From an uncultured Clostridia bacterium (GTDB taxonomy: Bacteria; Bacillota; Clostridia; TANB77; CAG-508): a DNA stretch of 64,000 nucleotides. Every line of letters starts with the position of its first letter. Within the stretch, counting starts at the first letter, position 1. Location of the stretch: NCBI GenBank assembly GCA_947632035.1, contig CANRNR010000005.1, forward strand, positions 10,017 to 74,016, written 5' to 3'. Positions 31,681-31,756 of the stretch are shown here, one piece after another. The notes below the pieces were generated by a model. That model saw only the letters and a program-made list of their open reading frames with translations, was not told the origin of the DNA and did not search any database. The translations under genes were made by a program, and so were the position numbers.

Positions 31681-31756
31681 TTTTTGTAAACCTTTTGTAA
31701 TATTTATGTAACATATTTTAAATTTTTGTAAAATAAATGTAATATTTTTGTAACAA
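31681..31756. repeat. Six phased TTTTGTAAn-type repeats. TGTAA sits at 31685, 31696, 31707, 31727, 31738 and 31749, in two triplets with exact 11-bp periodicity.
   Basis: Counted directly. The spacings are 11, 11, 20, 11 and 11 bp. Confidence 0.65.

What the first reader, a model, noticed from the sequence alone, without database searches (positions are those of the whole stretch)
31681..31756. Array of six TTTTGTAA-type repeats with exact 11-bp phasing, next to the DnaA boxes
TGTAA recurs at 31685, 31696, 31707, then 31727, 31738 and 31749. That makes two triplets on the same helical face, an iteron-like arrangement, directly upstream of the rSAM and Cys-tail operon. It suggests cooperative binding of a regulator or replication initiator along one DNA face. 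Together with the DnaA boxes it resembles a theta-replicon origin (DnaA boxes plus iterons plus AT-rich DNA), or else a heavily regulated promoter.
Basis: seen in the sequence. Interest (0 to 1): 0.55.

Follow-up and report, generated by a model that had tools for sequence, protein, structure and literature searches.

The report
Phased TGTAA array beside DnaA boxes
Six evenly spaced TGTAA motifs sit next to a cluster of DnaA-binding boxes, forming a strongly conserved chromosomal control module in uncultured gut Clostridia. It is most likely a docking array for a two-component response regulator working beside DnaA, and it is not a plasmid-type replication origin.

Summary
TGTAA occurs at 31685, 31696, 31707, 31727, 31738 and 31749 (spacing 11/11/20/11/11), 8 bp from a cluster of five DnaA boxes (31604-31676). 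Chance does not explain it: about 3.6e-5 triplets are expected in this AT-rich spacer.

The array and boxes form one conserved module. It is found in 14 distinct sequences from rabbit-gut and human-gut Clostridia. It always lies between polC-DUF1294 and uvrA, while the gene just downstream varies (uvrA, an L,D-transpeptidase, or the rSAM/Cys-tail pair). TGTAA cores are 98% identical between lineages, spacers 56%, and the array has no indel. rSAM cassettes elsewhere lack the module.

The theta-origin reading is not supported:
- there is no rep gene;
- GC skew is monotonic;
- there are no DnaA-trios;
- there are no plasmid or phage relatives.

All six hexamers fit the WalR consensus TGTWAH-N5-TGTWAH. 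The geometry, six head-to-tail half-sites on one DNA face at about -115 to -46 of a promoter, is that of OmpR/PhoB-family operators. A similar triplet lies inside a genuine oriC (L100/L120).

Best reading: a response-regulator operator coupled to a DnaA-box cluster. The binding protein was not tested. I rate it a new variant of known kinds, of moderate interest.

The parts
31560..31603 (+). Conserved AT-rich left flank of the module. Its function is unknown.
   Evidence: It is nearly invariant between the window and L004, and about 70% of columns are shared with the human-gut lineage. No conserved promoter or RNA structure was found.
31604..31612 (+). DnaA box 1, TTATCCACA (perfect consensus)
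   Evidence: It is conserved in 13 of 14 distinct module sequences.
31634..31642 (+). DnaA box 2, TTATTCACA (1 mismatch)
31646..31654 (+). DnaA box 3, TTATCCACA (perfect), 3 bp after box 2 and head-to-tail with it
   Evidence: It is invariant in all 14 sequences.
31655..31663 (+). DnaA box 4, ATTTCCACA. It is TTTTCCACA in L004 and a perfect TTATCCACA in the human-gut lineage.
   Evidence: Direct reading and the alignment.
31668..31676 (-). DnaA box 5, inverted (TTTTCCACA on the - strand). With box 4 it forms the palindrome TTTCCACA-ATAC-TGTGGAAA, followed by a T-run.
   Evidence: The palindrome plus T-run is flagged as terminator-like in both lineages. It folds as an 8-9 bp hairpin of about -9 kcal/mol, with one compensatory A-U/U-A change.
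31685..31712 (+). First triplet of half-sites: TGTAAA (31685), TGTAAT (31696) and TGTAAC (31707), with 11-bp head-to-tail phasing
   Evidence: The cores are invariant across lineages.
31727..31754 (+). Second triplet: TGTAAA (31727), TGTAAT (31738) and TGTAAC (31749). It starts exactly 42 bp (4 helical turns) after the first triplet.
   Evidence: The phase angles are 0/17/34 degrees for both triplets at 10.5 bp per turn.
31764..31792 (+). Sigma-A-type promoter TTGTTA-17-TAAAAT of the rSAM/Cys-tail operon. It places the array at about -115 to -46.
   Evidence: The same promoter sequence is conserved upstream of rSAM in L001, L002, L004 and L024.
31929..34233 (+). Downstream operon in this genome: a radical SAM/SPASM enzyme (31929-33299) and a 316-aa membrane protein with a Cys-rich C-terminal tail (33283-34233). 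This cassette sits between the module and uvrA in this lineage only.
   Evidence: The cassette occurs in many other contexts without the module.
34294..34322 (+). uvrA's own promoter, TTGACT-17-TATAAT, with a LexA-like box CAAACtaatGTTT. In human-gut relatives this promoter directly follows the array.
   Evidence: UvrA is identified.

Best explanation
The six TGTAA hexamers are a protein-binding array and form one half of a conserved chromosomal cis-element. The other half is a five-box DnaA-box cluster 8 bp away.

Most likely binder (inferred): a winged-helix response regulator of the OmpR/PhoB family, of the WalR/PhoP type. Such a protein would bind the hexamers head-to-tail as cooperating dimers along one face of the helix. 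The second triplet starts exactly four helical turns after the first, so all six sites stay within about 34 degrees of each other.

The array lies just upstream of the -35 hexamer of whatever promoter follows it. Here that is the rSAM/Cys-tail operon promoter. In relatives it is the uvrA promoter or a ykuD (L,D-transpeptidase) promoter. DnaA bound at the adjacent boxes would then add a replication-status input, as at Bacillus DnaA-box clusters that regulate neighbouring genes.

Shown: the array, its phasing, its purifying selection, its physical coupling to the DnaA boxes, its independence from the rSAM cassette, and that it is not a replicon origin.

Inferred: the identity of the binder, and the transcriptional output.
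For: 1. The array is far beyond chance.

2. Selection acts on the hexamer cores and their spacing. Between the rabbit-gut and human-gut lineages, TGTAA columns are 98% identical and the other array columns 56%. None of the 14 distinct sequences has an indel inside the array. The whole module is 83% identical, against 50% at uvrA third-codon positions and 52-55% in the flank to its right.

3. All six hexamers fit the WalR consensus. TGTWAH-N5-TGTWAH matches four overlapping times here, against 1.66 expected in the whole 64 kb. The same exact motif gives only 29 intergenic hits in the whole C. difficile genome (bioRxiv 10.1101/2022.04.01.486798). That paper also states that WalRK is found in all Firmicutes.

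4. OmpR-family regulators bind head-to-tail direct repeats with an 11-nt unit (PMC6222199).

5. Position fits an upstream activator-type operator. The array is at -115 to -46 of a promoter here. In relatives the last hexamer ends 15-34 nt before perfect consensus promoters.

6. In L004 the array is about 115 bp from the rSAM promoter, and an extra ATTACA-N5-ATTACA pair lies next to that promoter. Another TTACA triplet precedes a separate mini-gene. This hints at a regulon.

7. In an unrelated actinobacterial locus (L101/L106), a 3-4 unit TGTAAT array plus DnaA boxes lies directly upstream of an OmpR-family regulator/kinase operon, as expected for autoregulation.

8. There is precedent for WalR sites beside DnaA-box DNA. 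S. aureus WalR binds several sites in the rpmH-dnaA spacer and controls dnaA (PMC10746227).

9. One downstream neighbour in relatives is a cell-wall L,D-transpeptidase, a typical kind of WalR target.
Against: - No response regulator is encoded in the window, and the genome could not be inspected. Binding is untested.
- WalR/PhoP sites are normally pairs or even numbers of half-sites, not triplets.
- The distance from the array to the downstream promoter is neither constant nor in helical phase across lineages (start-to-start 15, 21, about 40 and about 120 bp). The distance to the DnaA boxes is fixed (7-8 bp). This suggests the array works with the DnaA boxes rather than with a particular promoter.
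- The promoters after the array in human-gut relatives match the consensus 12 of 12, so they should need no activator.
- Apart from L004, no further TGTAA pairs were seen upstream of other genes in the DNA held.
- A TGTAA-type triplet also lies inside a genuine oriC, just after the dnaA stop codon and not at a recognisable promoter.
Confidence: 0.45

Rival explanations
1. The module is a replication-control locus rather than a promoter operator. On this reading it is a DnaA-box cluster outside oriC, like the B. subtilis DBCs. Its TGTAA array would dock an accessory factor, which may or may not be a response regulator. That factor would shape or regulate the DnaA complex, as IHF does at E. coli datA and IHF/Fis do at DARS2. 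The result would be titration of DnaA or a change in its activity.
For: - The array is rigidly tied to the DnaA boxes (7-8 bp in all 14 sequences). The downstream gene and the promoter distance both vary.
- The module keeps its chromosomal position (polC-DUF1294 | uvrA) across lineages, whatever follows it.
- There are four or five near-consensus boxes, including a convergent pair.
- The same sub-module (DnaA box, inverted box, 6 nt, then three phased TGTAA-type hexamers) occurs in a genuine oriC, and the triplet is conserved in a relative with 84% DnaA identity (L100, L120).
- DBCs outside oriC that affect initiation are established in B. subtilis (PMC3245932).
- Whether Firmicutes have datA/DARS-like regulators is stated to be unknown (PMC13220808).
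Against: - There is no evidence of DnaA binding or of any effect on initiation.
- The distance to oriC is unknown, and no dnaA lies within 30 kb.
- The oriC triplet is lost in relatives with 68-74% DnaA identity.
- The metagenome hits were selected by a pattern that required a DnaA box next to the triplet, so the co-occurrence is partly ascertainment.
- B. subtilis DBCs also act as ordinary transcriptional operators, so this reading overlaps with the best explanation.
Confidence: 0.22
2. The hexamers, read on the minus strand (TTTACA/ATTACA/GTTACA), serve a leftward promoter. The array would be a Pho-box-like activator site, with the last hexamer acting as the -35. It would drive a transcript through the DnaA boxes, antisense to DUF1294-polC, with DnaA as a roadblock.
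For: - The scanner finds TTTACA-17/18-TATTGT on the minus strand at the same place in both lineages (window 31690-31661, L109 1400-1372, L113 3023-2995).
- In L004 a triplet in this orientation abuts a plausible promoter of a mini-gene.
Against: - The putative -10 lies in the hairpin loop. It varies between TATTGT, CATTGT and TGTTGT among relatives.
- Most lineages have no minus-strand gene to the left. The 179-aa ORF exists only in the window, L001 and L002.
- The match scores are weak (9 of 12).
Confidence: 0.07
3. The array is a run of low-affinity DnaA sites. Like the 9-mers with 2-bp gaps (11-bp phasing) in E. coli oriC, it would let a DnaA oligomer spread from the strong boxes.
For: - The 11-bp phasing equals a 9-mer plus 2 bp.
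- The array starts next to a strong inverted box in the same orientation (TGTGG... followed by TGTAA...).
- A comparable triplet lies in a real oriC.
Against: - The best match of any 9-mer at each unit to the DnaA box is 4-6 of 9. That is no better than the background of the same spacer, which is 4-7 of 9.
- The conserved core is TGTAA only.
- The gap from the anchor box to the first unit is 7-8 bp, not 2-3 bp.
Confidence: 0.05
4. The site is a theta-type (iteron plus DnaA box plus AT-rich) origin of a plasmid, an integrated element or a secondary chromosomal origin.
For: - It superficially combines direct repeats, DnaA boxes and AT-rich DNA.
- Short iterons of 11-12 bp at helical phasing exist at Vibrio ori2 (from my own knowledge).
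Against: - No initiator gene is nearby. The neighbours are polC, DUF1294, a non-conserved 179-aa ORF, rSAM and uvrA.
- GC skew rises monotonically, and genes on both sides are co-oriented.
- Synteny among housekeeping genes is stable across lineages.
- There are no DnaA-trios.
- No similarity was found in 72,556 plasmids or 50,697 phages, and the viral-contig pattern scan gave 0 hits.
Confidence: 0.03
5. No specific protein binds the array. It would be intrinsically curved DNA, or an UP-element-like AT-rich sequence, produced by a 42-bp duplication.
For: - T-tracts precede most hexamers at helical phasing in the window.
- The two triplets are a diverged duplication.
Against: - Across lineages the T-tracts and spacers vary freely (56% identity), while TGTAA is 98% conserved.
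- The human-gut version has spacers such as ACCGAA and CAATTA, which contain no A/T tract.
Confidence: 0.04

Closest known systems
WalR (YycF/VicR) operators, TGTWAH-N5-TGTWAH, and the related B. subtilis PhoP boxes (TT[A/T/C]ACA at 11-bp phasing)
   Same: - The hexamer sequence matches: all six fit TGTWAH.
- The arrangement is head-to-tail direct repeats with 11-bp phasing.
- The location is upstream of a -35 hexamer.
- In S. aureus, several WalR sites lie in the rpmH-dnaA spacer next to the origin's DnaA boxes (PMC10746227).
- PhoP promoters use four or more phased hexamers (from my own knowledge).
   Different: - There are six half-sites arranged as two triplets rather than pairs.
- The array is rigidly coupled to a DnaA-box cluster.
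- No cognate regulator was identified.
- The downstream genes are not the classical autolysin or Pho regulon, except for the ykuD gene in relatives.
OmpR F1-F2-F3 at ompF, and multi-repeat ArcA operators (TGTTA direct repeats, 11 bp centre to centre, often 3-5 repeats). Both are cited from my own knowledge.
   Same: - These are runs of three to six phased half-sites on one face, spanning about -100 to -40.
- Odd numbers of repeats are tolerated at ArcA sites.
- ArcA also binds E. coli oriC.
   Different: - The organisms and the core sequence differ (TGTAA here, TGTTA or GTTACA-type there).
- Neither has an adjacent DnaA-box cluster at ordinary operators.
B. subtilis DnaA-box clusters (DBCs) outside oriC (PMC3245932)
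   Same: Both are intergenic clusters of consensus DnaA boxes away from dnaA. Such clusters regulate neighbouring genes and influence initiation.
   Different: - B. subtilis DBCs are not described with an attached phased array for a second factor.
- The chromosomal position relative to oriC is unknown here.
E. coli datA and DARS2 (DnaA boxes plus IHF/Fis sites; PMC13220808)
   Same: Both are composite non-origin loci in which a DnaA-box cluster works together with the binding site of an accessory DNA-binding protein.
   Different: - There is no IHF or Fis in Firmicutes.
- There is no sequence similarity.
- The function here is untested.
Response-regulator sites inside origins: CtrA (TTAA-N7-TTAA) at Caulobacter Cori, MtrA at mycobacterial oriC, Spo0A boxes at B. 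subtilis oriC. All are cited from my own knowledge; PMC6265350 (MtrA) was retrieved.
   Same: - OmpR-type half-sites at 11-bp phasing are interleaved with or adjacent to DnaA boxes.
- A TGTAA-type triplet lies within a genuine oriC in L100 and L120.
   Different: The window's module is not at oriC, and a replication effect has not been shown.
Iteron-type theta origins, and the plasmid R1 parC centromere (two sets of five 11-bp repeats). Cited from my own knowledge.
   Same: Both are two clusters of short direct repeats at helical phasing. Plasmid origins also carry DnaA boxes.
   Different: - There is no rep or par gene.
- The locus has chromosomal synteny.
- Only 5-6 bp per repeat are conserved.
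- There are no plasmid or phage relatives.

Membership tests
OmpR/PhoB-family (WalR/PhoP-type) response-regulator operator | Hexamer half-sites matching the family consensus (WalR: TGTWAH-N5-TGTWAH) | tested here: met
   There are four overlapping exact matches at 31685-31754, against 1.66 expected in 64 kb. All hexamers in the orthologous arrays also fit.
OmpR/PhoB-family (WalR/PhoP-type) response-regulator operator | Head-to-tail direct repeats at 10-11 bp phasing on one DNA face | tested here: met
   The spacing is 11/11/20/11/11, giving phases of 0/17/34/0/17/34 degrees. The spacing is invariant in 14 sequences.
OmpR/PhoB-family (WalR/PhoP-type) response-regulator operator | Defined position relative to a regulated promoter | tested here: inconclusive
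   The array is always followed by a same-strand promoter. The start-to-start distance read from the sequences is 15, 21, about 40 or about 120 bp and is not in helical phase.
OmpR/PhoB-family (WalR/PhoP-type) response-regulator operator | A cognate regulator is present in the genome and binds the site | not testable with these tools
   No regulator is encoded in the 64-kb window. The rest of the MAG could not be retrieved, and no binding assay was possible.
DnaA-box cluster outside oriC (DBC) | Several consensus or near-consensus DnaA boxes clustered in an intergenic region away from dnaA | tested here: met
   There are five boxes in 73 bp, two of them perfect. The human-gut orthologues have four perfect boxes. 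There is no dnaA or dnaN in the window.
DnaA-box cluster outside oriC (DBC) | Stable DnaA binding in vivo, with an effect on initiation or on neighbouring genes | not testable with these tools
   This needs ChIP, IDAP-seq or genetics.
Chromosomal oriC (Firmicutes type) | Adjacent to dnaA/dnaN, with DnaA-trios and a DUE next to a box pair, and a GC-skew switch | tested here: not met
   The neighbours are polC and uvrA. There are no trio runs. Cumulative skew is monotonic. For contrast, L100 shows all of these features.
Iteron-type theta replicon origin | An adjacent initiator (rep) gene, iterons of about 17-22 bp, and location on a plasmid, phage or integrated element | tested here: not met
   There is no Rep domain in the neighbours. 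The conserved unit is 5-6 bp. Chromosomal synteny is stable. There are no plasmid, phage or viral matches.
Low-affinity DnaA-site array (E. coli oriC type) | 9-mers related to the DnaA box, spaced 2 bp apart, next to a strong anchor box | tested here: not met
   The phasing fits. However, the units match the box at only 4-6 of 9 positions, which equals background, and the gap to the anchor box is 7-8 bp.
Known RNA family or sRNA | A match to a curated covariance model, or conserved structure with covariation | tested here: not met
   Rfam gave 0 matches at E <= 1. The only conserved structure is the box4/box5 hairpin.

The most novel reading that the evidence does not exclude
The module could be a Firmicute counterpart of E. 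coli datA/DARS2. That would make it a dedicated chromosomal locus where a strong DnaA-box cluster is paired with a six-site, one-face array for a signal-responsive factor such as a WalR-like response regulator. Envelope or growth signals would then tune DnaA availability or activity. The same factor would also dock at oriC itself in some Clostridiales (L100/L120).
Probability: 0.15. Interest if true: 0.75.

Novelty: new variant of a known kind. Interest (0 to 1): 0.5.

Why it matters
DnaA-box clusters outside the origin, and phased response-regulator operators, are each well known. A rigidly coupled, strongly conserved composite of the two has not been described, to my knowledge. This one keeps its chromosomal position while the downstream gene changes.

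[quoted passage not shown] It also notes that the datA and DARS loci are absent there. This module is a concrete 150-bp candidate that makes that question testable by EMSA, footprinting and deletion.

If the array is only an ordinary operator, the result still matters for annotation. It corrects the idea that this is an origin or an rSAM-specific switch. It also defines a clean motif (TGTAA at 11/11/20/11/11) for regulon prediction in uncultured gut Clostridia.

Tried and rejected
- **Origin hypothesis:** rejected on GC skew, neighbour annotation and the absence of trio runs.
- **Plasmid and phage similarity:** BLAST of 31556-31760 gave only short AT-rich chance hits.
- **Viral-contig scan for five phased TGTAA:** it returned 73 loci, but these are unrelated 11-bp satellites or giant-virus repeats, plus one phage TGTAAC array. 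The viral scan for a DnaA box plus triplet gave 0 hits.
- **rSAM-linked regulation:** I fetched 24 rSAM loci. Only the syntenic ones (L001, L002, L004) carry the array, so the array is not a feature of the cassette.
- **Small RNA or riboswitch:** Rfam gave nothing. The alignment fold found only the box4/box5 hairpin. A candidate upstream promoter is not conserved between lineages.
- **Low-affinity DnaA sites:** the units score no better than background.
- **Search for a regulon:** relaxed TGTAA-N5-7-TGTAA scans of the window and 21 loci found extra sites only in L004.
- **Local regulator:** no response regulator or kinase is encoded in the window.
- **Hand-called promoters overlapping the triplets in L102 and L116:** the scanner did not confirm them, so I do not use them.
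- **One script** timed out and was replaced.

Full report
**Observation.** The spacer between a minus-strand 179-aa ORF (30756-31295) and the radical SAM gene (31929-33299) is 633 bp long and 81% A+T. TGTAA starts at 31685, 31696, 31707, 31727, 31738 and 31749. The hexamers read TGTAAA/TGTAAT/TGTAAC twice, so the array is a diverged 42-bp duplication with spacing 11/11/20/11/11. The triplet pattern occurs only here in the window and in none of 100 dinucleotide shuffles. Even with the local composition, 3.6e-5 triplets are expected in the spacer, and 0 of 5000 shuffles give one. At 10.5 bp per turn both triplets sit at 0/17/34 degrees. A continuous 11-bp array would drift to 86 degrees. The 20-bp step therefore resets the phase, and all six sites face one side.

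Immediately to the left are five DnaA boxes: 31604, 31634, 31646 and 31655 on the + strand, and 31668 inverted. Two are perfect TTATCCACA. Boxes 4 and 5 form a palindrome followed by a T-run, which the scanner flags as terminator-like.

**Context.** The window is ordinary Firmicute chromosome: ftsY, ligA, pgsA, ychF, pyrH, frr, uppS, cdsA, rseP, polC, DUF1294, then the spacer, then rSAM/SPASM, a 316-aa membrane protein with a Cys-rich tail, uvrA, a Mur ligase, secA and prfB. Nearly all genes are on the + strand. Cumulative GC skew rises monotonically through the site. There is no dnaA, dnaN, rep gene, response regulator or kinase.

**Comparative evidence.** The rSAM protein retrieved 19 genome loci and five further contigs. 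The rSAM/Cys-tail pair is a widespread two-gene cassette found in many unrelated neighbourhoods. None of those loci has the array or the DnaA boxes. The exceptions are L001 and L002 (the same species) and L004 (rSAM 79% identical). L004 shares the polC-DUF1294 neighbour and has the boxes and the array with the same phasing.

A metagenome scan for TTATCCACA-N20-40-(TGTAA-N6)x2-TGTAA then found 13 human-gut loci with the same module. There the order is polC, DUF1294, module, then either uvrA directly or a YkuD-family L,D-transpeptidase followed by uvrA. So the module belongs to the polC|uvrA junction. The rSAM cassette is one of several inserts between it and uvrA's own LexA-box promoter, which is still present at 34294-34322.

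**Selection.** Comparing the window with L109:
- UvrA is 92.6% identical in protein, but only 50% at third-codon positions.
- The 100 bp to the right of the array are 52-55% identical.
- The module, from box 1 to the last hexamer, is 83% identical.

Inside the array, TGTAA columns are 98% identical between the two lineages and the remaining columns 56%. No sequence has an indel within the array. The link to the DnaA boxes varies by only one base (7 or 8 nt). The start-to-start distance to the downstream -35 hexamer is 15, 21, about 40 or about 120 bp. One variant (L117) has lost exactly one repeat unit.

The selected features are therefore the pentamer cores, their exact spacing, and their attachment to the DnaA boxes.

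**What it is not.**
- It is not an origin, for the reasons given above: skew, synteny, no initiator gene, and no DnaA-trios.
- It is not related to anything in the plasmid, phage or viral collections.
- It is not a known RNA, and it has no conserved RNA structure apart from the box4/box5 hairpin.
- It is not an array of weak DnaA boxes. Each unit matches the box at 4-6 of 9 positions, the same as background.
- It is not mere curvature, because the A/T tracts vary while TGTAA does not.

**What it most likely is.** Every hexamer fits TGTWAH, and the spacing is N5. This is the B. subtilis WalR consensus (the motif as quoted in bioRxiv 10.1101/2022.04.01.486798). The closely related PhoP boxes have the same geometry (from my own knowledge). 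OmpR-family regulators bind head-to-tail repeats with an 11-nt unit (PMC6222199). In the window the six half-sites lie at about -115 to -46 of the conserved promoter TTGTTA-17-TAAAAT. This resembles OmpR F1-F3 at ompF and multi-repeat ArcA operators (from my own knowledge).

Supporting hints:
- L004 has an extra ATTACA pair beside its more distant rSAM promoter, and another TTACA triplet before a mini-gene.
- An actinobacterial locus (L101/L106) has a 3-4 unit TGTAAT array plus DnaA boxes directly upstream of an OmpR-family regulator/kinase operon.
- S. aureus WalR binds several sites in the rpmH-dnaA spacer and controls dnaA (PMC10746227).

I therefore commit, at about 45%, to a WalR/PhoP-like response-regulator operator that works beside a DnaA-box cluster.

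**The main rival.** The array's fixed link to the boxes, the variable promoter distance, and the perfect consensus promoters downstream in relatives all argue that the array may serve the DnaA complex rather than a promoter.

This is reinforced by L100. L100 is a genuine oriC: it lies in the dnaA-dnaN spacer and has ten boxes, a Spo0A-like box, and TAGTAGTAGTAGTAG-GGCC next to a box pair. It carries the same sub-module of DnaA box, inverted box, 6 nt, then TGTAAC/TGTAAT/TGTAAC at 11 bp, right after the dnaA stop codon. The triplet is conserved in L120 (84% DnaA identity), degenerate in L121, and absent in L122 and L123.

B. subtilis has six DnaA-box clusters outside oriC that influence initiation and neighbouring genes (PMC3245932). 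E. coli datA and DARS2 pair DnaA boxes with IHF/Fis sites, and whether Firmicutes have equivalents is stated to be unknown (PMC13220808). A datA/DARS-like reading is therefore open, at about 20%. It is compatible with the binder being a response regulator.

One caveat applies: the non-homologous metagenome hits were selected by a pattern that demanded a DnaA box, so their co-occurrence is partly built in.

**Verdict.** It is wrong on the theta origin, and it is too narrow on 'rSAM promoter'. The feature is a new variant of known kinds, a DnaA-box cluster fused to a phased OmpR-type array. Interest is moderate (0.5), because it gives a compact, testable candidate for non-origin DnaA control in Firmicutes. 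The binding protein and the output remain untested.

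Noticed in passing
window 31850-31928: The only Shine-Dalgarno-like sequence for the rSAM gene (GGGGA, 31850-31854) lies about 75 nt before the ATG. Between them is a palindromic insert of about 64 nt (GTTAGCTT...AAGCTAAC, 31856-31919) that folds at -13.9 kcal/mol (z = -3.0). L004 and L024 lack the insert and have the SD 8-9 nt from the start. The hairpin would bring the SD to about 10 nt from the AUG.
   Followed up: partly
window 31929-34233: The rSAM/SPASM gene overlaps the start of a 316-aa gene. That gene encodes a signal peptide, an extracellular domain, a TM helix, and a Gly/Tyr-rich then Cys-rich tail (CVHSSCACACAHSSCAHSSCACACAGSGRAGC). 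It matches no Pfam or NCBIfam family. The pair is a widespread cassette (more than 6,400 rSAM homologues at E < 1e-100) found in many genomic contexts. The tail may be the rSAM substrate.
   Followed up: partly
L004 6381-6558: Downstream of the Cys-tail gene there is a strong-RBS mini-ORF, MAKQQNVGAVHTHTHTHTHTR, encoded by a (CA)n run. It is preceded by a TTACA triplet (ATTACA-5-GTTACA-4-TTTACA) and followed by a hairpin. It has no counterpart in the window.
   Followed up: no
window 30756-31295 (-): A 179-aa ORF with no Pfam or NCBIfam match is transcribed divergently from the spacer. It is present only in the window, L001 and L002. It is absent from L004 and from the human-gut loci that keep the module, so it is not part of it.
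   Followed up: partly
window 30745-30780: A perfect hairpin (AAAAATTTCCTAGATT-AAAA-ATCTAGGAAATTTTT) lies between the convergent DUF1294 gene and the 179-aa gene. It is probably a bidirectional terminator.
   Followed up: no
window 50870-54245: A second radical-SAM locus: a NrtR-like Nudix/winged-helix regulator (50870-51541), followed by two tandem rSAM/SPASM genes (51679-52941 and 52956-54245).
   Followed up: no
window 34294-34322; L113 3103-3131: The uvrA promoter carries a LexA-like box between the -35 and -10 hexamers. The box is CAAACtaatGTTT here and CGAACttatGTTT in human-gut relatives. The window's box is degenerate and was missed by a CGAAC-N4-GTTYG search.
   Followed up: partly
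L100 1-410; L120 2661-3220: These are complete Firmicute-type oriC regions in the dnaA-dnaN spacer. They have DnaA-trios (five or more TAG repeats), a GGCC clamp, a tandem box pair and a TGTCGAA Spo0A-like box. A GTTACA x3 triplet at 11-bp phasing lies about 30 nt after the dnaA stop codon.
   Followed up: partly
L101 1613-1690; L106: In a freshwater actinobacterial contig, three or four TAATTACA repeats at 11 bp plus two or three DnaA boxes lie between a crgA-like gene and an OmpR-family regulator/kinase operon.
   Followed up: partly
L025, L027, L037, L041, L050, L087 (for example L025 5982-6039): A family of phage contigs carries six TGTAAC hexamers at 11-bp phasing (one unit shortened) next to a (CCTAG)n run near a contig end. 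It may be a phage origin or operator array, and it is unrelated to the window's module.
   Followed up: no
window 31656-31686; L109 1366-1397: The convergent DnaA boxes 4 and 5 double as an 8-9 bp hairpin plus a T-run. The A-to-T difference between lineages is mirrored on both arms: TTTCCACA/TGTGGAAA versus TATCCACA/TGTGGATA. It is unclear whether this symmetry reflects a hairpin, a terminator or a dimeric protein.
   Followed up: partly
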